IMG/VR virus record: IMGVR_UViG_3300032006_002703
Span: 43,411 to 107,410 of that record
DNA length: 64,000 bases
Direction: 5' to 3' (one strand)
DNA from: a virus
The position numbers and the translations under genes are program-made. This document shows, piece by piece, positions 2,258 through 64,000 of the stretch. The notes beneath the pieces were generated by a model that was given only the letters and a program-made list of their open reading frames with translations, searched no databases and had not been told where the DNA came from. Numbering within the stretch: the stretch's first letter is position 1; each line of letters opens with the position of its first letter.

Positions 2258-2794
2258 TTATTCCCTTCTGTCTTTAGTTTGGACGCGGTTTCTAACCTCT
2301 CTCGCAAGCTCCTTTTTTGCCGCTTTGATTTGCTCGTGTCTTTCTTTTTGAGATTCTTTAAACGATTTAATTAAATCTGCAACCTCTTCTTTGTTTTTAT
2401 TTTTTAAATTTTCTTGCAAAACTTTTCTTGCAAGATGGAGCTCATTCTGCAAAAGTTTCATTGCGTTTACTTTTATTTTAATCTCTTCAATAGGCTCGGG
2501 GCGAGGTCGAGGTTTTCTTCCTTCTTTGTCTGCTTTTATGTTTTCTGCAATCCATTTCGCTAAAGTGCTACTGCCCATTCCAAAACCTCCTGGTAAGGGT
2601 CTGTAGTCTCTTACTTGTAATGCTGGAGGTTTTCCCCAATGTGGAGGAAATGGCTTCCGCTTATTTTCGGATAATTTGGGTTTAACTTTTTCTATTTCTT
2701 TTGTTTGGGGCGGGTTTGGTTTTGACCTTTCTTTTTCGCCGAAAGAAAATCCTGCGACCAGCAGGGTAATTATAATTAAATTTATTGTTTTCAT
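2258..2794 (-). CDS. Secreted basic/helical hypothetical protein
   Basis: Signal peptide MKTINLIIITLLVAGFSFG; ATG 2794 lies 9 nt after a GTGTAT box. Confidence 0.7.
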   Translation of the reverse strand: MKTINLIIITLLVAGFSFGEKERSKPNPPQTKEIEKVKPKLSENKRKPFPPHWGKPPALQVRDYRPLPGGFGMGSSTLAKWIAENIKADKEGRKPRPRPEPIEEIKIKVNAMKLLQNELHLARKVLQENLKNKNKEEVADLIKSFKESQKERHEQIKAAKKELAREVRNRVQTKDRRE

Positions 2795-2825
2795 TAAATA
2801 ATGATACACAAATTAACAAATAAAG

Positions 2826-4109
2826 TCAAGTGGTTAGTTCTTTTAAAACTCTGCCTTGATTTAATATTGGATGTGGCCTTCCGCTGTGATCGTAATATTG
2901 ATGTTTTGGATTAACTCCCATATGGTCATATATCGTCGTTAAAACATCTGGAGGGGTTATGCCTGTTACAGGTTCCGACCCAGTCTTATCGCTTTCTCCT
3001 GCGACCCTGCCCCCTTTTACTTTTCCGCCTGCTATTGCTGCCGCCATTGACCTGGACCAATGGTCGCGACCTCCATTGGCGTTAATTTTTGGGGTGCGGC
3101 CAAATTCTCCCCACGCCACAACCATAACATCATCCATCATTCCTCTTGAATGAAGGTCAATAATTAGTGCGCTAAATGCCTTGTCAAATTGAGGTAAATT
3201 TCTCTCTCCCATGCTTTTGTCGCTAGCCTGATGGGTGTCCCATCCAAATGGAGTTTTTACGGTCACCATTTTTACGCCACCTTCTACTAGCCTTCTGGCT
3301 AAAAGAAGATCTCTGCCAAAACCTTCTCCGTATAACTCTTTTGTGAATGTTGATTCTTTTTCAATATCGAATGCATTTGCGGCTTTGCCGCTGGTTAGCA
3401 ATCCTTGAGCCTTACTGTTAAATTCATCTATCGAATCTACCATTCCAGATTTGTCTAGTATACTTCTAAAGCTATCAAATTCTTTTAATAGATTCTTTCT
3501 ATTGTCAACAATGTCCACAGTTAAAGATTGATCTAAAGTAAAATTTGTATCTCTATACGGAATAGTGCTAGAGGGCCTGGTCTTTGTTTCATAGGGTCCA
3601 AACTCATGCGGTAAATATCCAGGTCTAGTGCCGTTGTTATGATTGGGCACTACGACATATGGCGGAACTTCTGCCCCTTTTGAAGCGTGCTCTGATATTG
3701 TAGAACCTATACTTGGATAGAAATTCTGTTGTTGATTGGGGACGGGGGCCTTATATCCAGAATGCATAATCTCGTGCGCAGAACTATGATTATTATTGTC
3801 GTGATAAAGGCCTTTTATGATTGACCATTTATCCATGCAGTCTGCGCATTTGGCTAAATGTTCGGGCAATTGAATTCCGTCTACCGTGGTGGGTATAGCC
3901 TCAAAATGCCCTTTGAACGGTTGAGGGGCGTAAGGTTTTGGATCAAAGGTTTCATGATGTGAAGGACCTCCGTTCATCCAGACTACTATAACTGATTTAT
4001 TTTTATGTAGACCCGTGCGTTTTTGAGAAGCAAGTAATTGAGGTAATGTCAAATTGTTGGCCCCGAGCATTGCCCCGCTTACTATAAAAGATCTGCGAGA
4101 TAATTTCAT
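2826..4109 (-). CDS. DUF1501 family protein with twin-arginine signal
   Basis: MKLSRRSF N-terminus; GGPSHHETFDPKP, LLARRLVEGGV, WDTH, WGEFGRTPKIN..GRDHW motifs characteristic of DUF1501. Confidence 0.92.
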   Translation of the reverse strand: MKLSRRSFIVSGAMLGANNLTLPQLLASQKRTGLHKNKSVIVVWMNGGPSHHETFDPKPYAPQPFKGHFEAIPTTVDGIQLPEHLAKCADCMDKWSIIKGLYHDNNNHSSAHEIMHSGYKAPVPNQQQNFYPSIGSTISEHASKGAEVPPYVVVPNHNNGTRPGYLPHEFGPYETKTRPSSTIPYRDTNFTLDQSLTVDIVDNRKNLLKEFDSFRSILDKSGMVDSIDEFNSKAQGLLTSGKAANAFDIEKESTFTKELYGEGFGRDLLLARRLVEGGVKMVTVKTPFGWDTHQASDKSMGERNLPQFDKAFSALIIDLHSRGMMDDVMVVAWGEFGRTPKINANGGRDHWSRSMAAAIAGGKVKGGRVAGESDKTGSEPVTGITPPDVLTTIYDHMGVNPKHQYYDHSGRPHPILNQGRVLKELTT

Positions 4110-4124
4110 GCCTTATATATACAC

Positions 4125-4391: not shown

Positions 4392-4431
4392 TACATAATA
4401 ATAAAAAACTTGCGAAAGATTTAAATTTTTT

Positions 4432-5288: not shown

Positions 5289-5636
5289 TCATCCTTTCTT
5301 TATTTTTCTTTTGGCCTTAACGTAAGGCTTCATTAGGTAATGTTTGATGAATCCTCCAATCATTTGCTTTCCTAGTCTTTTTCTTATTTTATTTTCATAC
5401 CTCGTCATTGGGCAATCAATAACCCTGGAGAATGTAATGACTCCTATAAAAGTACAAAGCGGCAAGCATACATACCACGGTGGATTTTGTGAGGGAGAAA
5501 ATCCATTATATACTAAAATAAAGAACGCTCCAAAATTACCAAAAACAACTAACCAATGGAGTACTACTACAAGCATCAATTTCAGGCTGTCTGTTTCTGG
5601 CAGAAACCCAAAACGGCGGTTTTTGTTCATCAACAT
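5289..5636 (-). CDS. DUF2784-like membrane protein
   Basis: Two hydrophobic helices with a His, then DCPMTRYEN..R...G....GGFIKHY matching the DUF2784 pattern. Confidence 0.7.
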   Translation of the reverse strand: MLMNKNRRFGFLPETDSLKLMLVVVLHWLVVFGNFGAFFILVYNGFSPSQNPPWYVCLPLCTFIGVITFSRVIDCPMTRYENKIRKRLGKQMIGGFIKHYLMKPYVKAKRKIKKG

Positions 5637-5644
5637 GTATTGTA

Positions 5645-7462
5645 TTACACAATACTCTCTAAAAATTCATGTTCCCCATTTAGGATTTCTTTTGCTAGCG
5701 CATAGTTTTTCTTGTCGTTATTTTTTGATATCGCTTTAAATTTTTCCTCTATTTTTATTTTTGAATTTTTAAATACGCAATCCGCTAGCTTTCTTGCTTC
5801 TTTTGTGTTAATCGATTGAGCTCTCGACGAAGAGGCGGCGATAACAAATAATTCTGCACCGATTTCTGCCAGTCTCCCAAGAAGTAGCTGCTGTTTATCT
5901 AGTGCGGGTCCGTATCTTACCATTGAATGAAAAAGCTTTCTCGCAAGCTTTTTGCTAGTTTTTGAAACATACTTTAATTGACCTTTTAAGGCGGGATCCA
6001 TACCATTTGGTATTCTATGAGAAAAAGGGAGCCACTGCTTTGGGTACCATTTTGCATAAAACCATGCCGCTTTAATTGCTGCGACCATTCTTGTTTTCAT
6101 TGGCAGTCTACTGTCTAAAACTGCACCTGCTGCCTTGAGGTGGGGATCTAATGCTTCTCTTGCAAGGATGAGTCGCATTATTTCGCTTGACCCTTCAAAA
6201 ATAAGGTTAATTCTTAAATCTCTAAACATTCTCTCTACTGCAGGGTTAAGTTGCCCTCTGTTTTTTAAAGACTGCGCGGTTTCGTAGCCTCTTCCGCCTC
6301 TAATTTGCATTGTTTCGTCGATCATTTTCCAGGCGGTTTCTGTTCCCCACATTTTTGCTATAGCAGATTCAACTCTAATATCGTGATTTTTATTGTCTGC
6401 CATTTGTGCGGTTAATAGTACCATGGATTCCATAGCAAACGTATTTGCAGCAAGGTGAGCTAACTTATCTGCAATTGCGGAATGTTTTCCTATTACACAG
6501 CCCCACTGTGATCTGGTAGACGTCCACTGTCTGCAAACCTTAAGCATCCATTTTGTTGCGCCAACACATATGGCGGGGAGGGTCAATCTTCCAATATTTA
6601 AAGTTCCCAAGGCAACTTTCATCCCCCTCCCTTCTCCTAGTATAATATTTTCTTTAGGGACGTAAACTTCATCAAATTTTACAACTCCATTGTATAACGC
6701 CTTAAGCCCCATGAACCTGCATCGATTAACTATACTTACTCCTGGCATATCCATGTCTACAATAAAAGCTGTAATTTGCTTTTTTCCATTTTTGTCTGGG
6801 GTTCTAGCCATTACTATGATGTGTTCCGCTTTTAATCCATTGGTGCACCAAAGCTTTTCTCCATTTAATACAAAATGACTTTTGTCTTCTGAGAGCTTTG
6901 CTTCTGTGATCATTTTGGAGGGGTCAGAACCTACTCCATCTTCCGTTAAAGCAAAAGCGCTTACCGCACCATTGCTGAATTTTGGTAAATATTTTTCTTT
7001 TTGCTCTTCTGTTCCGTACATCAAAAGGGGTTGGGGCACGCCTATTGATTGATGCGCGGACAGTAGGGCAGATATATTTCCGCACTCCGAGCCGCAGACC
7101 ATTGCAGCCTTTGAGTAATTTGTTTGAGATAAACCTCTTCCTCCGTATTCTTTTGGGATCTTGATTGCAAAGGCTCCAATTTTTGCCAGCTCTTTAAATA
7201 CCTCATCGGGAATTTCCCCATTTTCATCTATGGCGTCAGGGTCTACGTATTCGGTAAAAACATTTTTTAAATCCGAAGTGAAGTCTTCTCCCATTTTTGA
7301 TTGGTGTTCGTTTTGCTGGGGAAATGGAAATATATCGTTAAAGTTTATATTTCCACTATATAATCCACCTGCAAACGTTTTATTTAAATCCTCTCTCCCT
7401 GCTTCCGCAGCCTCAAGTGCGGCAGCTTTATCTTTCGACATTTTTGATGTATCTATTGACAT
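5645..7462 (-). CDS. fadE: Acyl-CoA dehydrogenase (long-chain, VLCAD/ACAD9-like length)
   Basis: IPKEYGG, AFALTE..VGSD, LNGEKLWCTNG, GGRGY, R.FRDLRI..IFEGSSEI with the catalytic Glu present. Confidence 0.95.
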   Translation of the reverse strand: MSIDTSKMSKDKAAALEAAEAGREDLNKTFAGGLYSGNINFNDIFPFPQQNEHQSKMGEDFTSDLKNVFTEYVDPDAIDENGEIPDEVFKELAKIGAFAIKIPKEYGGRGLSQTNYSKAAMVCGSECGNISALLSAHQSIGVPQPLLMYGTEEQKEKYLPKFSNGAVSAFALTEDGVGSDPSKMITEAKLSEDKSHFVLNGEKLWCTNGLKAEHIIVMARTPDKNGKKQITAFIVDMDMPGVSIVNRCRFMGLKALYNGVVKFDEVYVPKENIILGEGRGMKVALGTLNIGRLTLPAICVGATKWMLKVCRQWTSTRSQWGCVIGKHSAIADKLAHLAANTFAMESMVLLTAQMADNKNHDIRVESAIAKMWGTETAWKMIDETMQIRGGRGYETAQSLKNRGQLNPAVERMFRDLRINLIFEGSSEIMRLILAREALDPHLKAAGAVLDSRLPMKTRMVAAIKAAWFYAKWYPKQWLPFSHRIPNGMDPALKGQLKYVSKTSKKLARKLFHSMVRYGPALDKQQLLLGRLAEIGAELFVIAASSSRAQSINTKEARKLADCVFKNSKIKIEEKFKAISKNNDKKNYALAKEILNGEHEFLESIV

Positions 7463-7463
7463 A

Positions 7464-9446
7464 TTAGTGTGGTCCTGAAAATTTACTATACTCTATGGGG
7501 CCACCCTTAAAGGGTGCCCAACCTGTTCCCATGATCATTGCAAAATCGATATCGTCTGTAGTTTTTGCAACCTTTTCTTGTATGCATTTCTGCGCTTCTT
7601 GAGTCATTGACTCTACCATCTTGCTTTCTATGTCGCACAATATGGGGTTGTCTTTTTGCATTTTTAAAAATACTGGGTTTGGACAGACAGCTTCCCTCCC
7701 TTTATACAGGAAGAATCCTTTTCCGCTTTTTCTTCCAAATTGTTTTGTTTCTAGGATTTTATGAATTATTTGAGGGACCTTAAAATCATCTAGCCTTTTT
7801 TCTAAATCAAGCGCTACATGAGCTGCAACATCGAGACCTATTTCATCAAGCAGTCTTAGCGGACCCATAGGCATGCCAAAATCTAACATACAGTTCTCTA
7901 TGGAGGTTAGCGGGTGCCCGTCCGAAAATAATCTTAAAGCTTCAACAAGATAGGGTAATAGGATTCTGTTAACCAAAAAGCCTGGACTATCCTTAACCAC
8001 TACTGGAAGCTTTCCTATTGAGATTACAAATCTTTTTGCTCTATCTTCTGTCTCTGCGCTAGTTTTCTCTCCAACAACAATCTCAACCAATTTCATCTTA
8101 TGTACGGGATTAAAAAAATGAATTCCCACAAAGTTTTCTGGTCTTTTAAGTCCTTTTGCAAGTTCGGTTATTGACAGCGCAGAAGTGTTTGTCGCGAGAA
8201 TTGCATCTTCTGCTAGCCCGCTCTCTATTTCCTGCAGGACCTTTGTTTTTAATTCGAAATTTTCTACAACAGCCTCTATCGCTAGACTTTGCTTACTAAG
8301 GGGTACAGAGTTTTTTGTGAAGTTCAGTTTTCCCAAACAATCTCTAACTGTGGGCCTATCTATTTTATGCTTAAGTACCGCAGAAACAAAAAGTTTGCCT
8401 ATTTTTTTGAGACCAGATGCTATTGCGCTCTCAGAAACATCCTTTAATAAAACTCTTTTTCCTCTAGAGGATATCCATTGGGCAATCCCTGCGCCCATTG
8501 TTCCTGCGCCAATAACGACAATATCATCATCTATTTGTTTATCAAGTTTCGGGTCATACCATGGCATTCCATGGGGAAGCTTTTTCGCTCTTTCTTGCAG
8601 AAAGAATACTCTTATTAAATTTCTACAAGCCTTAGTTTTTGCGAGAGAAAGGAACCCTTTCTTTTCTAGCTTGAGTGCTGCGTACTTATTTTTAAAAAAA
8701 CTTTTTGCCACAACTTCAATTATTTTATTGGGTGCAGGGTAGTTTCCTCTAGTCTTTTTATAAACACTTTTCTTTGATAGAAAAATTGAAATCGGCAATA
8801 GTATGGCTTGTGTTAATTTATTGACTTTTCTTTTTGGTTTTTTGGAACCACACAAGCTAACGGCCTCTTTAAAAAGATTTTCCTTGTGGCACATCTTATC
8901 CACCATTCCTAATTTAAGCGCTTGAATTGGGGCATAGATTTTACCAGAAAGCAATGCCTGTAGGGATTTTGGTAAACCAATTATTCTTGGCAACCTAGTT
9001 GTTCCTCCCCATGCGGGTAATATCCCAAGCATAACCTCTGGGAGCCCTAGTTTTGTGCATTTTTCATTGGATGCAATTCTGTATTTACATGCAAGAGACA
9101 ATTCTAATCCCCCACCGAGGCAGGCGCCATTGATTGCGGCCACGGTAGGTATACTTAACCTTTCTATTCTATTAAAACTCTCTTGTCCGTAGCGCAAAAC
9201 TCCACGAAGCCACTTTTCGTTTGTTAAATTATCTTTCATGGATAGAAGATCCGCTCCTGCAAGATAAATCGAGGGTTTCTTGCTGACGAAAATAAGACCT
9301 TTAATATCTTTATTTCCTTCGACCTCCTCCAGGATTTCATTCAATCTAATAAAAAAATCCATATTTAAGATATTTGCTTTAGAGTTTGGTTGATCAAACT
9401 CTGCTACTGCAATTCCGTCTGTTATATTAAAATTAATCATTCGCAC
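7464..9446 (-). CDS. fadJ: Enoyl-CoA hydratase / 3-hydroxyacyl-CoA dehydrogenase multifunctional enzyme (FadJ/FadB family)
   Basis: Crotonase motifs AAINGACLGGGLELSLAC and GLPEVMLGILPAWGGT; NAD-binding GAGTMG, ATNTS, GIHFFNP, PGFLVNRIL, GMPMGP. Confidence 0.95.
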   Translation of the reverse strand: MRMINFNITDGIAVAEFDQPNSKANILNMDFFIRLNEILEEVEGNKDIKGLIFVSKKPSIYLAGADLLSMKDNLTNEKWLRGVLRYGQESFNRIERLSIPTVAAINGACLGGGLELSLACKYRIASNEKCTKLGLPEVMLGILPAWGGTTRLPRIIGLPKSLQALLSGKIYAPIQALKLGMVDKMCHKENLFKEAVSLCGSKKPKRKVNKLTQAILLPISIFLSKKSVYKKTRGNYPAPNKIIEVVAKSFFKNKYAALKLEKKGFLSLAKTKACRNLIRVFFLQERAKKLPHGMPWYDPKLDKQIDDDIVVIGAGTMGAGIAQWISSRGKRVLLKDVSESAIASGLKKIGKLFVSAVLKHKIDRPTVRDCLGKLNFTKNSVPLSKQSLAIEAVVENFELKTKVLQEIESGLAEDAILATNTSALSITELAKGLKRPENFVGIHFFNPVHKMKLVEIVVGEKTSAETEDRAKRFVISIGKLPVVVKDSPGFLVNRILLPYLVEALRLFSDGHPLTSIENCMLDFGMPMGPLRLLDEIGLDVAAHVALDLEKRLDDFKVPQIIHKILETKQFGRKSGKGFFLYKGREAVCPNPVFLKMQKDNPILCDIESKMVESMTQEAQKCIQEKVAKTTDDIDFAMIMGTGWAPFKGGPIEYSKFSGPH

Positions 9447-10693
9447 GTCTCAATTTCTATAGCGGACCCCTGGCCTCCGCCAACACAGAGCGAGGCGAGT
9501 CCTTTTTTTAGACCCCTTCTTTTTAACTCTTTAGCTAAAGTAAGAATGATTCTTGCTCCAGAAGCTCCAACAGGATGTCCTAGCGCTATCGCTCCTCCAT
9601 TAACGTTAAATTTCTCATCTGGAATTTCGCCAATATCGTTTTCGATTACTTTCTTGCATGCAAGTGTCTGTGCGGCAAACGCTTCATTTATTTCTATCAA
9701 ATCCATGTCTTTAAGGTTGACTCCAAGTTTCTTGATTGCAAACACTGGGCCAAGGCCCATTCTTTTTGGGTCGCAGCCAACATGAGTGTAATTGTTTATT
9801 TTTGCAATAGGTTTTTTTCCTGTTTTATTTAATCCTTCTTCAGTCATTAACAGCAAGGCAACTGCTCCGTCTGTTACTTGAGAAGAATTACCTGCGGTTA
9901 CCGTTCCTTCTCTTTTGTCAAAAATAGCGCGAAGCCTGTTGAGTTTTTCTGTCGTCGTATCTTCCCTGATTCCATTGTCTTTAGTGATAACTTCGCCGCT
10001 GGGAGAGTTAATGCAATCATCGTTTGAAATGTATATTGGTGATATTTCATCCGCTTGAATAAGACTGGTTGCCATGGAGGCTTTCCCGTGAGAAAGAAAG
10101 GAAAAAATGTCCTGCTCTTTTCTGCTGATTTCATATTCTCTCGCTAAAATTTCTGCAGTCTGCCCCATATTAATTCCAGACAGGGGATCGTGCAGGCCCA
10201 TGCGTAAACTAATTTTTGGAGCTAAATCACTTAATCTAAATTTTAAGATTGCTTTTAATTTCTCTTTTTTTGTTTTTGCCCCGAAGAGAGAAAATATCTT
10301 TTTAGACGTTGATCTTGAAAAAAGCAGGGGCATTTGAGACATGCTTTCCGTTCCTCCTGCAAGGAATATATGGCCTTCATTAGCCTTTGCTTTTGCCGAG
10401 GCACACGTTACTGCTTCGAATCCAGAGGCGCAATTTCTATGAACGGTTACTGCTGGTATATTTTTGGGCAAACCAAGTCTTGTTCCAATAATCCTAGAAA
10501 CATTCATTTCGTCAGCGGGCTGCCCAACGCAACCGAATATAACTTCATCTATCAAACCTAGGTCTATGTCTACTTCAGATAGGACTCCTTTACTCGCTGC
10601 AATCCCTAATGCAGACGCAGATTCCTCTGCAAGAGAGGTTCCCATCTTGCAAAACGGGGTTCTTTTTCCCTCTACAATATATAAGTCAGACAT
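9437..10693 (-). CDS. fadA: 3-ketoacyl-CoA thiolase (FadA/FadI family)
   Basis: RTPF, NCASG (catalytic Cys), VTAGNSS..TDGA, EINEAF, GGAIALGHPVGASG, LCVGGGQG all intact. Confidence 0.95.
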   Translation of the reverse strand: MSDLYIVEGKRTPFCKMGTSLAEESASALGIAASKGVLSEVDIDLGLIDEVIFGCVGQPADEMNVSRIIGTRLGLPKNIPAVTVHRNCASGFEAVTCASAKAKANEGHIFLAGGTESMSQMPLLFSRSTSKKIFSLFGAKTKKEKLKAILKFRLSDLAPKISLRMGLHDPLSGINMGQTAEILAREYEISRKEQDIFSFLSHGKASMATSLIQADEISPIYISNDDCINSPSGEVITKDNGIREDTTTEKLNRLRAIFDKREGTVTAGNSSQVTDGAVALLLMTEEGLNKTGKKPIAKINNYTHVGCDPKRMGLGPVFAIKKLGVNLKDMDLIEINEAFAAQTLACKKVIENDIGEIPDEKFNVNGGAIALGHPVGASGARIILTLAKELKRRGLKKGLASLCVGGGQGSAIEIETCE

Positions 10694-14772: not shown

Positions 14773-14801
14773 AGTATAGCAAACAATCCAACGAATGTCA
14801 A
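14773..14801 (-). promoter_or_regulatory. sigma70-type promoter for the helicase/primase block
   Basis: TTGACA-17nt-TATACT, 8 nt before ATG 14764. Confidence 0.8.
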
Positions 14802-15076
14802 TCGTTATCTTCGGAATTTAATCCTAAATCTACGGACGTGCCCATTTCTTCCATTTGTGCTAGATATTGCTCCATTGCCTTCCTGAGGCCCATCTCTATA
14901 ATTTGAGAGCTTGACTTCGAGATGATGGCAGGGGATCCATTTTGAGCAACAAAGGCTAAAATTAGCCCTTTATTTTCTTCAGCGTCTCCAGTAAAGGAAT
15001 ATAATTGCTCTAATAGCCCTTCGGGGATAGTGAATTGAGGTAAAGATTCTGGATCAATTTCCATATTGTCATCCAT
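14798..15076 (-). CDS. Small acidic hypothetical protein
   Basis: ORF with a GTGTAT box 8 nt upstream. Confidence 0.7.
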   Translation of the reverse strand: MDDNMEIDPESLPQFTIPEGLLEQLYSFTGDAEENKGLILAFVAQNGSPAIISKSSSQIIEMGLRKAMEQYLAQMEEMGTSVDLGLNSEDND

Positions 15077-15097
15077 GTTATTATATACACTACATCT

Positions 15098-16906: not shown

Positions 16907-16935
16907 ATTATAGCAAATTAATCTTTCAGTGTCAA
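16907..16935 (-). promoter_or_regulatory. Perfect sigma70 consensus promoter
   Basis: TTGACA-17nt-TATAAT, 6 nt before GTG 16900. Confidence 0.88.
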
Positions 16936-18703: not shown

Positions 18704-19858
18704 TTATGTATTATTTAAGTTTCTACTGGAGTTTGGATATTGAAATGCTGCGTCGAATTCTGAAGATCCAGCTATTGTCGCTCTATTGCTATTTGCGTAA
18801 TGCCCTTTTTTGTCATTTCCGTAATAGCCAGTCTCGCCTTTAACTTTTGTAAGATCTGGCGTTTGGTTAGAGGTGGGAATGTGAATTGTTTCTCCAGCGG
18901 CATTAATTGCATATTTATAAGTCGCCCAAGATGCCCCGTCAATCACTAAATTTTGGTCAGTCCATATTGAGTTATCGCCGCTGGTTGTTTCTTCGAGTAA
19001 ATTTAAAAACTCATACCTTTGTAATCTCGAAGTTAGCGTCCCAAGGTCGCCTGTATCATTTTCATTGCCTGTAAATCCGTCCTCTGGCACCTGTTTCCCA
19101 AGTGGAATCCAGGAAGGAAGGATAGTGTTGTCCGCGCTACGCCTTGGAAAGGAGGGTGAGGGGTGTGTGGTTGGAGGTACTGTCCCGCTTGCTTTATAAT
19201 ACATTCCGTCCGAGTCCTTAATGATGGAGTTGTTTGAGTATGTGGCTAGAGGGTCTCTATTCGATGCGCCATCTATTTGCGCCTGAGTTAAGGTTGACAT
19301 CGCTGCAATAACTAGCGGCTGACTTGCAGTTTCTGAATCGGATATTCTGGCGATTATGAGCGGGGCCGAGTTTGTCCCATCCGCCTTAGTACCATGAGTT
19401 CCCCTTGACCAATGCGAAAAAGAGGTATTCCAATAAGGCTCGTTTGCTAAGGGCGCAAAGCATGCATACCTTACTTTAATTTTTTTCCATTTATTACTTA
19501 AGCTAGGGCTTGTTGCTAAATCTCCTCCGCTAATATCACTAATCAGCTGAAAGTAGTCTTCAGAGTCAGACCCGACAATGTCCCCTATGACATAAGGCTG
19601 TCCGTTTACCCATGGCGCTATATTGGGGTCGTCATAGTTGAGTTTAGTTGTAAATTCTGCGGTCCCCGCATTTACTGTGGATTCTGTTTTATTATCTAGC
19701 CAATGTTGCACCCAGAATGTTTGATTATATCTGTATTCACCAGCTCCAATGCTAATGCCAGTGATTTTAAACGTTTCCTTTGGTACGGGAGATCGAAAGT
19801 CAACAATTGTGTAGGGGTGGGGGCGGGAATCGTTTGAATATCTAAAGGAGGAGTTCAT
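18704..19858 (-). CDS. Hypothetical protein with two CBM5/12-like aromatic modules (possible virion protein)
   Basis: W..GQPYVIGDIV....YF...W and Y....IIK..DGMYYKA...W segments; GTGTAA box upstream. Confidence 0.5.
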   Translation of the reverse strand: MNSSFRYSNDSRPHPYTIVDFRSPVPKETFKITGISIGAGEYRYNQTFWVQHWLDNKTESTVNAGTAEFTTKLNYDDPNIAPWVNGQPYVIGDIVGSDSEDYFQLISDISGGDLATSPSLSNKWKKIKVRYACFAPLANEPYWNTSFSHWSRGTHGTKADGTNSAPLIIARISDSETASQPLVIAAMSTLTQAQIDGASNRDPLATYSNNSIIKDSDGMYYKASGTVPPTTHPSPSFPRRSADNTILPSWIPLGKQVPEDGFTGNENDTGDLGTLTSRLQRYEFLNLLEETTSGDNSIWTDQNLVIDGASWATYKYAINAAGETIHIPTSNQTPDLTKVKGETGYYGNDKKGHYANSNRATIAGSSEFDAAFQYPNSSRNLNNT

Positions 19859-19866: not shown

Positions 19867-20442
19867 TTACACCTCTTTGTTTGGCTTCGGGCAGATTTTT
19901 GAAATCATTTGATTTCTATTTTTCCCCGCATAGTACCAATGCCAGGCAATATCTTCCCTCATTTTTTTAATTTCAGCCTCCTTTTTATTGAGTTGATTCT
20001 CTAGTAGATCTAAGCACCTCATGTCAAGATGTGATAGGTCAATTTCTAACTCGACTGCTATCTTTAGTAGAGAATCTACGTCCTTTTTGTTTTTTGCCTT
20101 CGTTGCTTTATTATAGAGGGCTTGTTTTTTCTCTGCTTCGCTTTTTGGTTTATTTATAAGTTTGTCTGGGTGGGTTAGGATTACAATTTTTCTATAAAGG
20201 TCTTTTATCTGTGTTGAGGAAAATATTAGATCCTCTTGTTCTGTTGCTGCTTTTTTTCCTGGAGGGTCTTGGGTTAGGGGGTTTGGTATGTCGTTTTCTT
20301 TGCAATGAGTTATTATTGCCTCTACCCATTCCTTTTTAGCTTCTAGGAAAATTTCTCTGGTTTCATTATAATCTAATTCTATATATTTAGATTTATATTT
20401 AAGTTTTCGAAACCTGGAGGATTTTTGTTCGTCAGGATTCAT
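19867..20442 (-). CDS. J-domain (DnaJ-like) protein
   Basis: IKDLYRKIVILTHPDK with intact HPD motif. Confidence 0.75.
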   Translation of the reverse strand: MNPDEQKSSRFRKLKYKSKYIELDYNETREIFLEAKKEWVEAIITHCKENDIPNPLTQDPPGKKAATEQEDLIFSSTQIKDLYRKIVILTHPDKLINKPKSEAEKKQALYNKATKAKNKKDVDSLLKIAVELEIDLSHLDMRCLDLLENQLNKKEAEIKKMREDIAWHWYYAGKNRNQMISKICPKPNKEV

Positions 20443-20456
20443 GCAGCTAAATACAC

Positions 20457-20487
20457 AAAAAAAAGGGCGGGGAAAGCCCCCGCCCTT
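20457..20487 (-). terminator. Rho-independent terminator after the repeat fibre gene
   Basis: Minus strand AAGGGCGGGG-GCTTT-CCCCGCCCTT followed by a T run. Confidence 0.9.
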
Positions 20488-20510: not shown

Positions 20511-21473
20511 TTACAATGAAGCAATATAGTCGAGGCTATAATCTGCGCTAGGCGTTTCATCCGAGAAGATGAAGGTAGCCCCCGAGGTGGAGACTCCACT
20601 TAGCTGTACAGCAAGAATAGGATCGCCTGCAGAATTCCTAAGCATTCCCATGATTTTGGGAGCAGAGGAAAACGTTTGAGAGAACGTAATTGCCTTGGAG
20701 GCAAGGTTGTTCCCTATTGCGACAGAACCTACTTCGGATTCACCGTCAAGATCGCTTACGGCAGTACTTAGCGTAGCGATGTTGGTCGAATTAGCCTTCA
20801 TGCCTGTAGAAACGGTGTTCTTCGCGGCACTCAATGTGCTGATCGCCTGAGAGCGAGCTGTAGACTCACTGACTACTGCGGAAGAAACGGTGTTCTTCGA
20901 GGCACTCAATGTGCTAACGGCATTCGAACGAGCTGTAGACTCACTGACTACTGCGGAAGAAACGGTGTTCTTTGCGGCACTCAATGTGCTGATCGCCTGG
21001 GAACGAGCTGTAGACTCACTGATTACTGCGGAAGAAACGGTGTTCTTCGCGGCACTCAATGTGCTGATCGCCTGGGAACGAGCTGTAGACTCACTGACTA
21101 CTGCGGAAGAAACGGTGTTCTTCGCGGCACTCAATGTGCTAACGGCATTCGAACGAGCTGTAGACTCACTGACTACTGCGGAAGAAACGGTGTTCTTCGC
21201 GGCACTCAATGTGCTGATCGCCTGAGAGCGAGCTGTAGACTCACTGACTACTGCGGAAGAAACGGTGTTCTTCGCGGCACTCAATGTGCTAACGGCATTC
21301 GAACGAGCTGTAGACTCAGTGGTTACTGCGGAAGAAACGGTGTTAAGATCATCGTCGAGGGCGAGATCTTTTGCACCGCTACCAGAGTCAACCGTGAGCT
21401 TGCTCGAGACTGCGTTATTAGCTAGAATGGCTCCGCCATTTAGCTTGACTTTCTCTGTGTTGAAGATAGCCAT
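20511..21473 (-). CDS. Ser/Thr/Ala-rich coiled-coil fibre protein with C-terminal H-type-lectin-like domain
   Basis: Seven 25-aa repeats SSAVVSESTARS(NAV/QAI)STLSAAKNTV; C-terminal ITFSQTFSSAPKI...VSTSGATF...LDYIA. Confidence 0.7.
   Translation of the reverse strand: MAIFNTEKVKLNGGAILANNAVSSKLTVDSGSGAKDLALDDDLNTVSSAVTTESTARSNAVSTLSAAKNTVSSAVVSESTARSQAISTLSAAKNTVSSAVVSESTARSNAVSTLSAAKNTVSSAVVSESTARSQAISTLSAAKNTVSSAVISESTARSQAISTLSAAKNTVSSAVVSESTARSNAVSTLSASKNTVSSAVVSESTARSQAISTLSAAKNTVSTGMKANSTNIATLSTAVSDLDGESEVGSVAIGNNLASKAITFSQTFSSAPKIMGMLRNSAGDPILAVQLSGVSTSGATFIFSDETPSADYSLDYIASL
20808..21344. repeat. 75-bp tandem repeat, 7 copies (coding)
   Basis: AGAAACGGTGTT recurs every 75 nt from 20808 to 21333. 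Confidence 0.95.
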
Positions 21474-21524
21474 ACTTATATGTACAAAGAAAACTAGCTT
21501 TGTGGGAACAGTCTGATATGATTT

Positions 21525-25776: not shown

Positions 25777-25881
25777 CTTGATCAGAATGTACACTGTTAT
25801 TTAAAAGGAAAGAATAAAACTCTGCCTATTAAAAAGTCTCCAAAGTAACTTTTAACTTTTCATGTAACTTTAATAAAGTTT

Positions 25882-25887
25882 GTGTAT
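25882..25887 (+). promoter_or_regulatory. GTGTAH box before the portal gene (representative of 11 exact copies; see findings)
   Basis: GTGTAT 10 nt before ATG 25898; a mirror GTGTAC (25789-25794, minus strand) serves the divergent DUF2827 gene. Confidence 0.7.
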
Positions 25888-43432: not shown

Positions 43433-43467
43433 ACCAAGATATGTTTACACCTAAATGTTAGCCGTTT

Positions 43468-44908: not shown

Positions 44909-45291
44909 TAAAATGGAATCTCTTCTAAAACTTCATCCTCTGTCTTTTTATTCTCTTGAGAATCTTTCGTTTGCTCCGAATCCTTTTGGTCACTGAGGAA
45001 ATGAACCCTTTCTGCGGCGCAGAATAGTTTGGTTCGTTTTTCCTGTTCCTTGGTTTCCCATCTTTTAAGTTCGAGCCTACCTTCCACGATAACCTTGCGC
45101 CCCTTTTCAAGGAATTTACTACAATTGTCCGCAAGCTTGTTCCAAGCTTCTACGTCAATATAGGTTGGTTCATTCTCCTTATATGGGTTATTGATAGCTA
45201 TGCCGAATTTACAGACGGTGTACTTTTCGTTGATGTTTGAGGATTCTGGATCCCTGGTGAGGTTTCCTTCTGCTATGAATTTATTTAACAT
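44908..45291 (-). CDS. ssb: Single-stranded DNA-binding protein
   Basis: N....GNLTRDPE, AWNKLA...L.KG..V.VEGRL...W, acidic tail EEIPF. Confidence 0.95.
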   Translation of the reverse strand: MLNKFIAEGNLTRDPESSNINEKYTVCKFGIAINNPYKENEPTYIDVEAWNKLADNCSKFLEKGRKVIVEGRLELKRWETKEQEKRTKLFCAAERVHFLSDQKDSEQTKDSQENKKTEDEVLEEIPF

Positions 45292-45892
45292 AATTTATAA
45301 TTTCCTTGTTAAGGGTTTGTTTTACATATGAAATCGCTGCATTATGAATATTTATGCAACCTTGAATACTTAGGCCCATTTCTTTTGCCACATCTTTCCA
45401 GGGCATAAGTTTATTTTGTTTTCCCTCTTCATATCTTAAATTAAAGATTCTTCCCACACGATTATCCTTGTGTTCTTTTACTATTTCTAGTATTTTTTCA
45501 TAAGAGTCGATATCTAATGATTCTTTCGGATCTGGTGCGTGAGTCTTCATTAAAAATTCGAGGTTATTGTATTTGTGATTGAAGATTTTAGATTGCTTTT
45601 TGTGTTTATTGTAAGTATTTAAACATAACCATCTCGCTTCATTTCCTAGGAATGTAGAAAATTTTGTTTTCTTTGATGGGTTGTATTTAAGTGCTGCTTG
45701 ATAAATATAGTAATCCTTTTCCTGTATTAGTTCTAAACCAAATTTCAGAAAGTTCGATCGTTCGAAATGAGATGTTACTATGGATATAAAAATTCCACTA
45801 TGTCTCAGGATCAATTCTTTGATCGCAGAATCTGCGGCGTTATTGTCCTTAACGTTTTGGACTAATTGGTTATCTGTAAGTTTTTTAGGCAT
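45281..45892 (-). CDS. Phage-encoded sigma70-family factor
   Basis: Region 2-like YQAALKYNPSK.TKFSTF; region 4-like HTH WKDVAKEMGLSIQGCINIHN.AI. Confidence 0.8.
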   Translation of the reverse strand: MPKKLTDNQLVQNVKDNNAADSAIKELILRHSGIFISIVTSHFERSNFLKFGLELIQEKDYYIYQAALKYNPSKKTKFSTFLGNEARWLCLNTYNKHKKQSKIFNHKYNNLEFLMKTHAPDPKESLDIDSYEKILEIVKEHKDNRVGRIFNLRYEEGKQNKLMPWKDVAKEMGLSIQGCINIHNAAISYVKQTLNKEIINYVK

Positions 45893-46748: not shown

Positions 46749-46777
46749 ATAATACAACATATATCCAATAATGTCAA
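46749..46777 (-). promoter_or_regulatory. sigma70-type promoter (leftward: dNMP kinase, sigma, ssb block)
   Basis: TTGACA-17nt-TATTAT. Confidence 0.82.
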
Positions 46778-46890: not shown

Positions 46891-46919
46891 TTGACAATTT
46901 TATTTTAGAATGATAGTAT
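46891..46919 (+). promoter_or_regulatory. sigma70-type promoter (rightward) with extended -10
   Basis: TTGACA-17nt-TAGTAT with TG.n upstream, 6 nt before ATG 46926. Confidence 0.8.
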
Positions 46920-57832: not shown

Positions 57833-57894
57833 TTTTCGTTGAAATTCTTGTTTTTAAGACTACTATTCAAATAGAGGGTGTACATTTATACATT

Positions 57895-58833
57895 ATGAAA
57901 TATCTTACCACTACTATATTAAGCATACTATTACTAACAACCTACTTGCCTGGAGAAGGTAAGAGCAGAAAAGAGGTGGCAGACCATTTGCAAAACATCT
58001 CTGTAACAATTAAATCTGAAGGTCGTTGGTCTAAATCTGAGGGCTCTGGCGTTTTAGTCAATAGAGAGATAGAGGGAGAGAAAATAACTTTTGTGTGGAC
58101 CGCTGCGCATGTCATAGATAACCTAAGGACAATTAGAGAGGTTGTAGACAGCGAAGGGAACACAAAAAAGCTTGTAGAATTTAGAGATGCCAGAATAGTA
58201 AAAGAGCTTGTAGAATCTGGTAGACGCGTAGGAGAAATAAAAATGGACGCTTCAGTAATTAAATATAGTGATGCGGAAAATGGCCACGACCTAGCCCTAC
58301 TAATGGTAAGAGCAAGGGATTATGGAAAAGATAGCGCCAAATTCTTAGAAAAAACAAAAGATGAAAAAATTGTTCCAATCGGCACTCGCCTCTATCACGT
58401 AGGAAGTCTCTTGGGACAAGTAGGCTCCAACAGCATGACTACAGGAATAGTTTCTCAAGTAGGGAGAGTTCTTGGAGATATTGCTCGGGGCGCAGAATTT
58501 GATCAAACAACAGTCACAGCATTCCCAGGAAGCAGCGGCGGTGGAGTTTTTCTTGAAAATGGGGAATATGTAGGGATGGTCGTTCGTGGCGCAGGAGAAG
58601 GATTTAATTTCATAGTCCCAATTCGACGCATGGAAGATTGGGCGAAAGAAAATAATATACTTTGGGCAATTGACACAAAAGTAAAAATGCCAACATTCAA
58701 TGAAATCAAAAAGATACCCGTTGAAGGAAATTCTGACGAAAAGAAAACTAGAGAACACGAAGGCTCAGAAGAAAACTTTTCCTCTCCAGCGGACCAGTTC
58801 CCATTCTTAATTAAAAAGACAAGTAAGAAATAA
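57895..58833 (+). CDS. Trypsin-like serine protease with N-terminal signal/TM
   Basis: GSGV, TAAHV, DLALL, PGSSGGG catalytic triad motifs; ATG 57895 lies 11 nt after GTGTAC. Confidence 0.88.
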   Translation: MKYLTTTILSILLLTTYLPGEGKSRKEVADHLQNISVTIKSEGRWSKSEGSGVLVNREIEGEKITFVWTAAHVIDNLRTIREVVDSEGNTKKLVEFRDARIVKELVESGRRVGEIKMDASVIKYSDAENGHDLALLMVRARDYGKDSAKFLEKTKDEKIVPIGTRLYHVGSLLGQVGSNSMTTGIVSQVGRVLGDIARGAEFDQTTVTAFPGSSGGGVFLENGEYVGMVVRGAGEGFNFIVPIRRMEDWAKENNILWAIDTKVKMPTFNEIKKIPVEGNSDEKKTREHEGSEENFSSPADQFPFLIKKTSKK

Positions 58834-58837: not shown

Positions 58838-58865
58838 TTGACTTAAGGAGGAAGTGACGTATAAT
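58838..58865 (+). promoter_or_regulatory. sigma70-type promoter
   Basis: TTGACT-16nt-TATAAT, 6 nt before ATG 58872. Confidence 0.72.
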
Positions 58866-62662: not shown

Positions 62663-63422
62663 CGTAACAATTTCAGATGCAGGGGTGGATAACTCGTTTG
62701 GCCCTTCTTTATTCCAAAGAGACGAGAATGGTTTGCTAAAGAATACTCAGTACGAATTTAATGAAGACGGCTCCGTAAACTGGAGGGCGATGATTAAAGA
62801 GGAGCACCTCTTCCCCAATAAAGGCTGGTTTGAATCCAGAAAGAGGGAGGTTCCCTCTTCAGCGGAAGGCCTGGCAGATCATCAACTCTTGATTAAACTA
62901 AGTGGAATTAAGGAGCTTGCAAAACTTAGGGGATTTAATCACATTAGTTACCGAACGGAAAAATGCGAACAGAATCATGTTGCTGTAAATTGCACCATAA
63001 GTTTTATACCAAATTACGAAACAGGAGGAGCTTGCGTTTCATATGAAGATATGGCCAATGCAACGCTAGAAAACACAAGCAGTTTTGCAACTAAATTCCT
63101 AGAAACCATTGCCTGCAACAGAGCTTTTGTTAGAGCTGTTAGAAATTTTTTAAATGTTCACATTGTTGGCGATGATGAAATCGACAAGTCCAACAATCCA
63201 ATGATTACAGCATCAGCACCATCCTCACTTACCCCCTCCAGCATCCTAGAGAGTCAGGTTAGGGATAAGTTAAATTGCGGAAACTTCGATGCCTTTAAGC
63301 AGGTGCTAAGGAATTGGTGGCAAGAAAAGAAATACAACAATCAAGAGGTAGGCAAATGGGCCTCATTTGACGATGTCCCAGCAAAGGAAGCTAGGGTCTT
63401 ATTGAAACTCATAAATGATTGA
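62613..63422 (+). CDS. Hypothetical phage protein (possibly ssDNA-annealing-like)
   Basis: LLIKLSGIKELA, A.NRAFVRAVR weakly recall Rad52/Sak-type proteins. Confidence 0.45.
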   Translation: MARKKTQNTSESTVENSVTISDAGVDNSFGPSLFQRDENGLLKNTQYEFNEDGSVNWRAMIKEEHLFPNKGWFESRKREVPSSAEGLADHQLLIKLSGIKELAKLRGFNHISYRTEKCEQNHVAVNCTISFIPNYETGGACVSYEDMANATLENTSSFATKFLETIACNRAFVRAVRNFLNVHIVGDDEIDKSNNPMITASAPSSLTPSSILESQVRDKLNCGNFDAFKQVLRNWWQEKKYNNQEVGKWASFDDVPAKEARVLLKLIND

Positions 63423-63454
63423 TTTAAAGGCATATTGGTGTAATATAAACCAGT

Positions 63455-64000
63455 ATGCCTTTCGATTTACCACCAAACGCCAAGATTGGAGACGAATACG
63501 TTTTTGCGGGCCGTAAGTATATAGCTCGACAAGACCCAGCACCTCGTCGCCCAAGCGATTTTCGAACAAAAGACGAAGCTGTAGCGGCGTTTGTTCCAGA
63601 TATTTATAGACTAGAAAACGTAGGCTTAGCGAGCTGGACCGATGAAAGTCTTCGAGATCACTTCGAGAACAGCGGTTACAAAGAATGCAAATTTTACAAT
63701 CCATCTACAGGTCAATTCGAAAGCTTTCCTATTTACGAGCACTTTGCAAGGTGCAACTTTTTTTGGCCTTATAGTTCTGTAGAGGATCTAGGGGATCCAG
63801 TCCTTGCCCTCGAGGATGCTCTTCAAAATTTTAATCCTGAGGCATTTATCGCAGATAGCCTGTGGCCAGACCAAGCGAGTTTTGACGCATGGTATACAAC
63901 TAACCAATCGACAGCACACAATTGGATGACTCATTATCCAGATGTTAATTTCTATTCACAACAAGCAGGTAAAACTTGGGCGGATTACGGAATAACCCAA
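63455..64000 (+). CDS. Hypothetical protein (partial, runs off the window)
   Basis: Not in the ORF track; hand translation MPFDLPPNAKIGDEYVFAGRKY... is open to 64000; GTGTAA box 11 nt upstream. Confidence 0.75.
   Translation, partial: MPFDLPPNAKIGDEYVFAGRKYIARQDPAPRRPSDFRTKDEAVAAFVPDIYRLENVGLASWTDESLRDHFENSGYKECKFYNPSTGQFESFPIYEHFARCNFFWPYSSVEDLGDPVLALEDALQNFNPEAFIADSLWPDQASFDAWYTTNQSTAHNWMTHYPDVNFYSQQAGKTWADYGITQ

What the first reader, a model, noticed from the sequence alone, without database searches (positions are those of the whole stretch)
2794..63455. GTGTAH box 8-12 nt before start codons: candidate phage-sigma (late) promoter
Seen, as box position and spacer to ATG. Minus strand: 2804-09 (9), 4119-24 (9), 5645-50 (8), 15085-90 (8), 19867-72 (8), 20451-56 (8), 25789-94 (12), 43445-50 (12), and variant TTGTAC 21482-87 (8). 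Plus strand: 25882-87 (10), 57878-83 (11), 63438-43 (11). A rough hand estimate gives fewer than one such hit by chance. Targets include portal, fibres, DUF2827, protease, J-domain and DUF1501, and none is a gene directly preceded by a TTGACA promoter. Twice the box is formed by the upstream Val-stop codons GTG TAA. Inference: a -10-like element read by the sigma factor at 45281..45892, giving near-leaderless late transcripts.
Basis: partly seen in the sequence, partly recalled or inferred. Interest (0 to 1): 0.75.

Follow-up and report, generated by a model that had tools for sequence, protein, structure and literature searches.

The report
Phage GTGTA promoters abutting start codons
An uncultured 107-kb marine phage and hundreds of its relatives put the five-letter word GTGTA 9-13 bases before the first gene of many transcription units. 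It is most likely a one-piece promoter read by a sigma factor the phage makes itself, set so close to the gene that the message has almost no leader.

Summary
In the window, 11 of 21 GTGTAH words lie 8-12 nt before a called ATG, against 0.05 expected (p 7e-24). GTGTA is the top upstream 5-mer in the whole 107-kb phage, in 80 related viral loci and in five complete or near-complete relatives. It is not enriched in three unrelated phages or in 510 kb of candidate-host (PVC) bacterial DNA.

It behaves as a promoter, not a translation signal:
- It heads transcription units, follows a terminator, and forms back-to-back divergent pairs.
- It is strand-specific.
- It lies 13 nt before a tRNA gene.
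- Its geometry matches the phage's own TTGACA/TATAAT promoters, which also end 6-8 nt before ATG.
- No -35 partner was found.

The sigma at 45281-45892 has an ECF-like two-domain fold and is expressed from a host-type promoter. It is present in every GTGTA-bearing genome I checked. A second conserved sigma-like gene, which I found outside the window, is missing from three complete relatives that keep the boxes.

No transcription start or binding data exist, so the sigma-to-box link and the leaderless transcripts are inferences. "Late" is too narrow a label. The closest known case is phiEco32 gp36 with its tAATGTAtA promoter. This scan has already reported the same motif on at least seven other phage genomes.

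The parts
2804..2809 (-). GTGTAT box, 9 nt before the ATG of the 178-aa gene 2258-2794. Overlaps a TTGACT-17-TATCAT sigma70-like site, so it may be a hybrid promoter.
4119..4124 (-). GTGTAT box, 9 nt before the ATG of the DUF1501 gene 2826-4109.
5645..5650 (-). GTGTAA box made from the Val-stop codons of the acyl-CoA dehydrogenase gene. Lies 8 nt before the ATG of the DUF2784 gene 5289-5636.
15085..15090 (-). GTGTAT box, 8 nt before the ATG of the 92-aa gene 14798-15076.
19867..19872 (-). GTGTAA box made from the Val-stop codons of the upstream gene. Lies 8 nt before the ATG of the 384-aa gene 18704-19858.
20451..20456 (-). GTGTAT box, 8 nt before the ATG of the 191-aa gene 19867-20442. It sits directly after the T-run of a strong terminator. 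The same terminator-plus-box layout precedes the orthologous gene in relatives.
20463..20487 (-). Intrinsic terminator (11-bp stem, 8 GC pairs, T-run) that closes the upstream unit just before the box at 20451-20456.
25789..25794 (-). GTGTAC box, 12 nt before the ATG of the DUF2827 gene 24676-25776. It is one arm of a divergent pair. The box is kept before DUF2827 orthologues in relatives.
25882..25887 (+). GTGTAT box, 10 nt before the ATG of the 687-aa gene 25898-27961, which heads the long plus-strand module up to 40234. It is the other arm of the divergent pair.
43445..43450 (-). GTGTAA box, 12 nt before the ATG of the 827-aa gene 40949-43432, directly downstream of the sigma operon. The box is kept before orthologues in 32 sites.
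57878..57883 (+). GTGTAC box, 11 nt before the ATG of the trypsin-like protease gene 57895-58833.
63438..63443 (+). GTGTAA box, 11 nt before the ATG of the gene 63455-64000, which is cut by the contig end. No J-domain was detected in it.
21482..21487 (-). TTGTAC variant, 8 nt before the ATG of the gene 20511-21473. It may be a weak box, but it has no statistical support.
45281..45892 (-). Sigma-A (P0001, 203 aa), a divergent ECF-like sigma with sigma2 and sigma4 domains. It is the candidate reader of the box.
46749..46777 (-). Host-type promoter TTGACA-17-TATTAT, ending 7 nt before the ATG at 46741. It heads the operon 105-aa gene, dNMP kinase, sigma-A, SSB, glycosyltransferase, 113-aa gene.
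46891..46919 (+). Divergent host-type promoter TTGACA-17-TAGTAT, ending 6 nt before the ATG at 46926.
14773..14801 (-). Host-type promoter TTGACA-17-TATACT, ending 8 nt before the ATG of the helicase gene (start at 14764).
16907..16935 (-). Perfect TTGACA-17-TATAAT promoter (with TG), ending 6 nt before the GTG start at 16900.
58838..58865 (+). Host-type promoter TTGACT-16-TATAAT, ending 6 nt before the ATG at 58872.

Best explanation
GTGTA is the single conserved element of a second, non-early promoter class of this phage lineage. Shown: the word is invariant, strand-specific and sits at the head of transcription units. Its distance to the start codon has a hard lower limit of 9 nt after GTGTA. 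Inferred steps: (1) Host RNA polymerase with the host primary sigma reads the phage's TTGACA-17-TAnnnT promoters, one of which drives the operon that holds sigma-A (45281-45892). (2) Sigma-A, an ECF-like two-domain sigma, replaces the host sigma on core polymerase. Its sigma2 domain recognises GTGTA as a -10-type element at about -14 to -10, with the final A at -10 in the position of the flipped base in ECF sigmas. The A/T-rich, G-poor stretch after it melts. No -35 partner is needed. (3) Transcription starts at the tenth base after GTGTA. This is the A of the ATG when the spacer is 9 nt, and 1-4 nt before it otherwise. The first gene of each unit is therefore translated from a leaderless or near-leaderless mRNA, as for the early promoters. 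Downstream genes in a unit use coupling or ordinary Shine-Dalgarno sites.
For: Enrichment: window 11 of 21 against 0.05 expected; genome 16 of 47 against 0.39; 80 related loci, GTGTAA 97 of 398 against 3.3, p 4e-109. GTGTA is also the top 5-mer in complete or near-complete relatives G001, G002, G023, G040 and G025.

Spacing in relatives is 9:60, 10:20, 11:7, 12:30, 13:9, with none below 9. A pyrimidine at +9 and a purine at +10 after the box are kept even when the ATG is 12-13 nt away.

Promoter rather than translation signal:
- The box lies 13 nt before the mature 5' end of tRNA-Ser.
- Box genes are almost never translationally coupled (2 of 56 against 286 of 549).
- They are more often divergent (17 of 56 against 69 of 549).
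- Orientation is 59 GTGTA against 4 TACAC.
- A terminator followed directly by the box is conserved across orthologues.
- Back-to-back boxes occur 20-87 nt apart, leaving no room for another promoter; TACAC lies upstream of 9 of 56 boxes against 0.6 expected.
- The spacer is G-poor, so it holds no Shine-Dalgarno site.

Same geometry as the host-type promoters, which end 6-8 nt before ATG in all three genomes tested.

Not a sigma70 -10 hexamer: T at the position equivalent to -7 is only 42%.

Sigma-A:
- A profile of the family hits only sigma factors in PDB, and the top Foldseek hits are all sigma factors.
- Residues 3-104 match E. coli sigmaE region 2 bound to its -10 element (4lup, Z 11.4, rmsd 2.7 A, 94 of 94 residues).
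- Residues 125-199 match sigmaE region 4 (2h27, Z 9.4).
- Its operon is served by a host-type promoter in 35 of 78 relatives and by a GTGTA box in none.
- Sigma-A is present in all six genomes with boxes. The second sigma-like gene is absent from G023, G040 and G025, which keep the boxes.

Precedent: phiEco32 gp36 reads a single element, tAATGTAtA, with the start 6-8 bp downstream (PMC8948821).

Controls: the same pipeline returns Shine-Dalgarno words, not GTGTA, in HTVC008M, PBC4 and phiEco32. GTGTA is seen once against 1.9 expected in 510 kb of Planctomycetota/Verrucomicrobiota loci. No phage RNA polymerase gene was found.
Against: There is no direct evidence. No RNA run holds this phage, so no transcription start is mapped, and nothing shows that sigma-A binds the box.

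Co-occurrence of sigma-A and the box is confounded by shared ancestry, because every genome examined belongs to one lineage.

Sigma-A keeps an intact, highly conserved sigma4 domain, which normally reads a -35 element. None was found, and this is unexplained.

A second sigma-like gene exists in this phage. The record is only about 76% complete, so other factors may be missing.

Some boxes lie 15-75 nt from the next start, so not all transcripts would be leaderless.

Gene starts came from a crude first-ATG caller.
Confidence: 0.62

Rival explanations
1. GTGTA is a promoter element, but sigma-A does not read it. The reader would be the host polymerase with its own sigma, redirected by a phage appropriator, as in T4 MotA/AsiA or in Thermus phage P23-45, whose -35-less promoters carry an extended -10 (from my own knowledge). 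Alternatively it would be the second sigma-like protein (sigma-B, genome 23132-23911).
For: In two boxes the TA of GTGTA lines up exactly as the first two bases of a -10 hexamer, 17 bp after a TTGACT or TTGAAA -35. Sigma-B is more conserved than sigma-A among the relatives that have it (55-73% against about 41% identity). Co-occurrence cannot separate sigma-A from other lineage-wide proteins.
Against: The bases after TA do not follow the sigma70 hexamer, with T at -7 only 42%. Sigma-B is absent from three complete or near-complete genomes that keep GTGTA as the top upstream word. Sigma-A is made from a strong host-type promoter and never from a box.
Confidence: 0.2
2. GTGTA acts at the RNA level. 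It would be a ribosome-binding or translation-enhancer signal, or a processing site for an endoribonuclease that trims polycistronic RNA to short-leader messages.
For: The fixed short distance to the start codon resembles a translation signal. Two boxes lie inside the 3' end of the upstream gene, where read-through RNA would carry them.
Against: The box precedes a tRNA gene at the same distance. It follows a strong terminator. It forms back-to-back pairs in divergent gaps where no upstream transcript is expected. It is absent from coupled internal genes, which use AGGAG-type sites. GUGUA pairs with at most three bases of the canonical anti-Shine-Dalgarno tail. The spacing has a hard lower limit instead of an optimum.
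Confidence: 0.05
3. GTGTA is the binding site of a phage transcription factor, either a repressor or an activator, that overlaps an unrecognised promoter. It would not itself be a sigma-recognised element.
For: Short invariant words near starts can be operator half-sites. Back-to-back GTGTA/TACAC pairs look palindromic. The 113-aa gene at 43468-43809 has a weak regulator-like hit.
Against: Most boxes are single and strictly oriented, 59 against 4. No other conserved promoter element exists around them. The Y/R pair at a fixed +9/+10 fits a start-site rule.
Confidence: 0.08

Closest known systems
Middle and late promoters of Escherichia phage phiEco32, read by the phage sigma gp36 (PMC8948821)
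   Same: Both are single conserved elements with a TGTA core (tAATGTAtA against GTGTA followed by A/T). Neither has a -35 element. The phiEco32 start lies 6-8 bp after the element, which puts it where the ATG sits here. In both phages the sigma is a non-late phage gene and the early genes use host sigma70 promoters.
   Different: No sequence homology was detectable between sigma-A and gp36 (hhalign probability 0.2%). According to the paper, gp36 lacks region 4, whereas sigma-A has a well-predicted sigma4 domain. phiEco32 genes have ordinary leaders with Shine-Dalgarno sites, whereas here the promoter abuts the start codon. The host and lineage are unrelated, and no gp79-like cofactor was identified.
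ECF (group 4) sigma factors such as E. coli sigmaE, with -35 GGAACTT and -10 GTC (PMC6648896; PDB 4lup, 2h27)
   Same: Both have a two-domain sigma2-linker-sigma4 architecture of about 200 aa. The best structural matches are sigmaE region 2 on its -10 DNA and sigmaE region 4. Both use a short GT-containing -10 element. The box's last base falls at about -10, where ECF sigmas flip a base out (this last point is from my own knowledge).
   Different: ECF promoters depend on a strong -35 element, and none exists here. Sigma-A scores below Pfam's Sigma70_r2 cut-off. No anti-sigma partner was identified.
T4 late promoters (TATAAATA) read by gp55 with gp33 and the sliding clamp (from my own knowledge)
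   Same: A phage sigma-like protein reads a single -10-type element with no -35, for genes expressed after the early phase.
   Different: The sequence word is different. gp55 is a truncated sigma without a sigma4 domain, and T4 late mRNAs have leaders. No gp33 or gp45 coupling was examined here.
Leaderless mRNAs of Actinobacteria, Deinococcus-Thermus and Thermus phage phiYS40 (from my own knowledge; PMC4633059 for mycobacteria)
   Same: The -10 element lies 6-8 nt before the start codon, so transcription and translation begin at the same base.
   Different: Here both promoter classes of a whole marine phage lineage use this layout. The probable host group (PVC bacteria) is not known for leaderless expression. 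No 5' ends have been mapped.

Membership tests
Sigma-70 family, ECF-like two-domain sigma (for the protein at 45281-45892) | Sigma2 domain fold (regions 2.1-2.4) | tested here: met
   AF2 model, pLDDT 80.6. Residues 3-104 match sigmaE region 2 bound to -10 DNA (4lup_C, Z 11.4, rmsd 2.7 A, 94 of 94 residues). The family profile hits only sigma factors in PDB.
Sigma-70 family, ECF-like two-domain sigma (for the protein at 45281-45892) | Sigma4 domain (helix-turn-helix, regions 4.1-4.2) | tested here: met
   Residues 125-199 match sigmaE region 4 on -35 DNA (2h27_D, Z 9.4, rmsd 2.8 A, 69 of 69) and SigD4 (3vfz, Z 9.4, rmsd 2.0 A).
Sigma-70 family, ECF-like two-domain sigma (for the protein at 45281-45892) | Sequence match to Pfam Sigma70_r2 above the curated cut-off | tested here: not met
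   E 0.044 and 14 bits against a cut-off of 24. Eighteen of 24 family members match weakly, best E 3.9e-4. PHROG 351 'RNA polymerase sigma factor' gives E 4e-5. The family is therefore divergent, and membership rests on fold and profile evidence.
Sigma-70 family, ECF-like two-domain sigma (for the protein at 45281-45892) | Binds core RNA polymerase and directs promoter-specific initiation | not testable with these tools
   Needs biochemistry.
Single-element phage-sigma promoters (phiEco32 gp36 type) | One short conserved element and no -35 element | tested here: met
   Only GTGTA and its A/T-rich flanks carry information. No enriched word was found at any register in -42..-9, apart from TACAC of divergent partners and A/T words.
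Single-element phage-sigma promoters (phiEco32 gp36 type) | Transcription start a fixed 6-9 bp downstream of the element | not testable with these tools
   Indirect only: a hard lower limit of 9 nt to the ATG and a Y/R pair at +9/+10. No RNA run holds the phage.
Single-element phage-sigma promoters (phiEco32 gp36 type) | Sigma homologous to gp36 | tested here: not met
   hhalign of the family profile against gp36 gives probability 0.2% and E 0.32.
Host sigma70 promoter with extended -10 (TGn-TATAAT) | Conserved -10 hexamer with T at -7, and TG at -15/-14 | tested here: not met
   After GTG-TA, the next four positions only follow A/T background, and T at the -7 equivalent is 42%. TG sits one base closer than in TGnTATAAT.
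Shine-Dalgarno-type translation signal | Complementary to the 16S 3' tail and found before coding genes only | tested here: not met
   GUGUA is not complementary beyond three bases. AGGAG-type sites occur before other genes of the same phage. The box precedes a tRNA gene.
Leaderless mRNA architecture | Promoter -10 element ends about 5-9 nt before the start codon | tested here: met
   The host-type promoters end 6-8 nt before ATG in G000, G001 and G002. GTGTA lies 9-13 nt before ATG.

The most novel reading that the evidence does not exclude
A large, uncultured lineage of marine phages (318 or more viral contigs, probably infecting Planctomycetota or Verrucomicrobiota) runs an almost wholly leaderless expression programme. 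Both the host-type early promoters and a phage-specific GTGTA class are fused to start codons. The GTGTA class would be read by an ECF-like sigma that, unlike known ECF sigmas, needs no -35 element although it keeps a conserved sigma4 domain. In part of the lineage, a second sigma made from a GTGTA-headed unit would add a further tier to the cascade.
Probability: 0.45. Interest if true: 0.65.

Novelty: new variant of a known kind. Interest (0 to 1): 0.55.

Why it matters
If it holds, a five-base word gives a ready transcription map for hundreds of uncultured marine phage genomes. It marks unit starts, true start codons and the early versus non-early gene classes.

It would also add a new sigma family with its cognate promoter to the few phage examples known (T4 gp55, SPO1 gp28 and gp34, phiEco32 gp36, 7-11 gp47). 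An ECF-like sigma that works without a -35 element is of mechanistic interest.

Systematic fusion of both promoter classes to start codons implies a host that translates leaderless mRNA efficiently. That is a testable clue to the unknown host. The minimal promoter-plus-sigma pair could also serve as an orthogonal expression part.

Tried and rejected
- No RNA holder was listed for the window DNA.
- tblastn of sigma-A and of a typical family member against 50,697 phage records found nothing. The terminase is only 24-27% identical to Firmicutes phages. No cultured relative was found.
- A -35 partner was sought in fixed register and at any register. None was found.
- A third (late) promoter word was sought by eye in 121 unexplained intergenic regions of three genomes. 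Nothing convincing appeared, only weaker host-type promoter variants.
- The TTGTAC variant was rejected as unsupported, because TGTA without the leading G is not enriched.
- tRNA genes in relatives were checked. Only two were found (tRNA-Thr in G002 and G025), and neither has a box. The tRNA argument therefore rests on one locus.
- The J-domain label for the gene at 63455 was checked. Pfam gave no hit and the protein has no HPD motif.
- A literature search for GTGTA with phage promoter or sigma, and for marine, uncultured, leaderless phage sigma, found no description of this motif or lineage.
- A test for leaderless signatures in PVC bacterial loci gave only a faint bump at 6-7 nt, which is too weak to use.


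Full report
**What the DNA is.** The window is bases 43411-107410 of a single 107,410-bp viral contig with 39% GC. CheckV estimates it to be 76% complete. It is an uncultured marine phage. DNA runs that hold it are seawater and marine metagenomes. No cultured phage shares its sigma, and its terminase is only 24-27% identical to any cultured phage.

**Checking the observation.**
- All 12 sites are at the stated coordinates with the stated spacers.
- GTGTAH is under-represented overall, with 21 copies against 50 expected from shuffles.
- Yet 11 of the 21 copies lie 8-12 nt before a called ATG, against 0.05 expected (p 6.9e-24).
- In an unbiased k-mer scan of the -22..-4 windows of 120 called genes of the whole genome, GTGTA ranks first. 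It takes 16 of 47 copies against 0.39 expected (p 7e-22).
- Allowing GTG starts adds two more sites, at genome 8091(-) and 21350(+). The second heads the module that contains the terminase.
- The same pipeline applied to Pelagibacter phage HTVC008M, Bacillus phage PBC4 and phiEco32 returns Shine-Dalgarno words and no GTGTA signal.

**Conservation in relatives.** The sigma at 45281-45892 (P0001, called sigma-A here) belongs to a family of more than 900 proteins of about 200 aa from marine metagenomes. I found 318 viral contigs that encode it.
- In the 80 loci fetched (sigma 37-48% identical), GTGTAA is again the top upstream 6-mer. It takes 97 of 398 copies against 3.3 expected (p 4e-109).
- The number of bases between GTGTA and the ATG is 9 (60 sites), 10 (20), 11 (7), 12 (30) or 13 (9). 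It is never smaller than 9.
- The genes downstream fall into 40 protein clusters.
- For orthologous genes, the flanks have diverged while GTGTA has not. Examples are the 827-aa gene after the sigma operon, DUF2827, and the 191-aa gene with its terminator.
- Five complete or near-complete relatives of 139-214 kb give the same genome-wide result.

**Promoter or translation signal?** Six observations favour transcription.
1. In the part of the genome outside the window, a box lies 13 nt before the mature 5' end of tRNA-Ser(gct), the first of two tRNA genes. The chance of this is about 0.002, but it is a single case.
2. Box genes are almost never translationally coupled to the gene before them (2 of 56 against 286 of 549). 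They are more often the first gene after a strand switch (17 of 56 against 69 of 549). The word is strictly oriented, with 59 GTGTA against 4 TACAC in the same windows.
3. At 20451-20456 the box follows the T-run of the strongest terminator in the window. This arrangement is conserved in relatives.
4. Boxes form back-to-back divergent pairs 20-87 nt apart. These occur at genome 6574/6595 and 8091/8119, and in the window at 25794/25882. TACAC is found upstream of 9 of 56 boxes against 0.6 expected. That leaves no room for another promoter.
5. The spacer is almost free of G, so it holds no Shine-Dalgarno site. Internal genes such as the presumed head genes do carry AGGAG-type sites.
6. The phage's host-type promoters (TTGACA, 16-18 bp, TAnnnT) also end 6-8 nt before the start codon. 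There are 7 such sites in this genome, 12 in G001 and 16 in G002. Placing a promoter against the start codon is therefore the lineage's general habit.

**Where transcription would start.** The hard lower limit of 9 nt fits a start at the tenth base after GTGTA. An ATG cannot lie upstream of the start. Position +9 is a pyrimidine and +10 a purine even at sites where the ATG is 12-13 nt away. Many of those sites are orthologues, so this is suggestive only. On this numbering the box covers -14 to -10.

**Which factor reads it?** The bases after TA do not follow a sigma70 hexamer, since T at the -7 equivalent is only 42%. No -35 element exists in any register. No phage RNA polymerase gene was found.

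Sigma-A has no Pfam hit above the cut-off, but other evidence identifies it as a sigma:
- Its family profile hits only sigma factors in PDB.
- Its AF2 model (pLDDT 80.6) matches sigma factors throughout.
- The N-terminal domain superposes on E. coli sigmaE region 2 bound to its -10 element (Z 11.4, rmsd 2.7 A, 94 of 94 residues).
- The C-terminal domain superposes on sigmaE region 4 (Z 9.4).

Sigma-A sits in an operon headed by a TTGACA-17-TATTAT promoter. In 35 of 78 relatives the nearest recognisable promoter upstream of sigma-A is of this host type. In none is it a GTGTA box. This fits a cascade from host sigma to sigma-A to the GTGTA units.

**A second sigma.** A Pfam scan of the whole genome found a second sigma-like gene, sigma-B (P0122, 259 aa, genome 23132-23911, outside the window). 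It has a Cys-rich insertion and an ECF-like region 4. It is 73% and 55% identical in G002 and G001. In all three genomes it lies downstream of a box-headed unit.

However, it is absent from five of six sigma-A-bearing records that are at least 90% complete. Local tblastn confirms its absence from G023, G040 and G025, and GTGTA is still the top upstream word in all three. The only complete sigma-B record found also has sigma-A. Sigma-A is therefore the sigma that tracks the box, and sigma-B is more likely one of its targets. Shared ancestry still confounds this argument.

**Comparison with known systems.** The nearest case is phiEco32. Its sigma gp36 reads a single element, tAATGTAtA, with the start 6-8 bp downstream (PMC8948821). 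The two cases share a TGTA core, a one-piece design and the same implied start position. The sigmas are not detectably homologous, and gp36 lacks region 4, whereas sigma-A has it. In fold, sigma-A is ECF-like. E. coli sigmaE uses a short GTC -10 element (PMC6648896), but ECF promoters need a -35 element. T4 gp55 with TATAAATA is the same idea with other parts. The systematic leaderless layout recalls Actinobacteria and Thermus phages (from my own knowledge).

**Host.** The phage's DUF1501 gene is closest to Planctomycetota and Verrucomicrobiota genes at 35-43% identity. In 510 kb of such bacterial DNA, GTGTA is not enriched before starts, with 1 seen against 1.9 expected. It is therefore not an ordinary signal of those bacteria. 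The host remains unknown.

- The class is non-early, not strictly late. Its targets include tRNA-Ser, a ClpB-like ATPase, DUF1501, DUF2784, a protease and the unit that carries sigma-B.
- One box overlaps a TTGACT -35.
- The TTGTAC variant is unsupported.
- The J-domain, portal and fibre labels were not confirmed.

**Standing.** The promoter reading is strong but indirect. The links to sigma-A and to leaderless transcripts are inferences. Earlier notes of this scan describe the same motif on at least seven other phage genomes and reach the same reading. New here are the tRNA target, the second sigma with its phyletic exclusion, the promoter context of sigma-A, and the Y/R start-site pattern.

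Noticed in passing
L090:3132-3911 (+) = genome 23132-23911, outside the window: A second sigma-like gene (P0122, 259 aa). It has a weak Sigma70_r2 match, a Cys-rich insertion after region 2 and an ECF-like region 4. It is 55-73% identical in some relatives and absent from others. It lies downstream of a GTGTA-headed unit and is directly preceded by a small gene with a weak host-type promoter. It may be a further tier of the cascade.
   Followed up: partly
L089:7174-7283 (+) = genome 7174-7283: A GTGTA box lies 13 nt before tRNA-Ser(gct), which is followed one base later by tRNA-Ser(gga). This is the only non-coding target of the box that I found.
   Followed up: yes
window 14773-14801, 16907-16935, 46749-46777, 46891-46919, 58838-58865, and genome-wide: All strong TTGACA/TATAAT-type promoters of this phage and of two complete relatives end 6-8 nt before a start codon. 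One of these is a GTG start at 16900. The early transcripts should therefore be leaderless too.
   Followed up: yes
window 5645-10693 (-): Three adjacent genes encode an acyl-CoA dehydrogenase, an enoyl-CoA hydratase/3-hydroxyacyl-CoA dehydrogenase fusion and a thiolase (Pfam E 1e-34 to 1e-61).
   Followed up: partly
window 20511-25794 (-): The unit behind the GTGTAC box at 25789 encodes two DUF2827 paralogues and two Sulfotransfer_2 enzymes before a 320-aa gene. It ends at the strong terminator at 20463-20487.
   Followed up: partly
window 34441-34446 (+) and 38302-38307 (+): GTGTAC and GTGTAA lie inside the 3' ends of genes, 23 and 39 nt before the ATGs at 34470 and 38347. The first is followed by an AAGGGAG Shine-Dalgarno-like site. 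They may be internal box promoters that give leadered transcripts.
   Followed up: no
L117 and L082 (two contigs of one MAG labelled Halobacteriovorax): One contig carries a DUF1501 gene 81% identical to the phage's, and the other carries a sigma-A homologue. These are phage contigs binned into a bacterial MAG. The eight MAG hits for sigma-A span unrelated phyla, so the bin labels are not host evidence.
   Followed up: no
L118-L196 (Planctomycetota and Verrucomicrobiota loci): There is a faint excess of TAnnnT ending 6-7 nt before first ATGs (about 4% of 358 crude gene calls against about 0.6% background). This might hint at leaderless genes in these bacteria, but gene starts were not curated.
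   Followed up: no
G001:C1:190991-191182 (+): The 214-kb relative carries a third sigma gene of 181 aa, with a clear Sigma70_r2 match (47.8 bits). It is absent from this phage.
   Followed up: no
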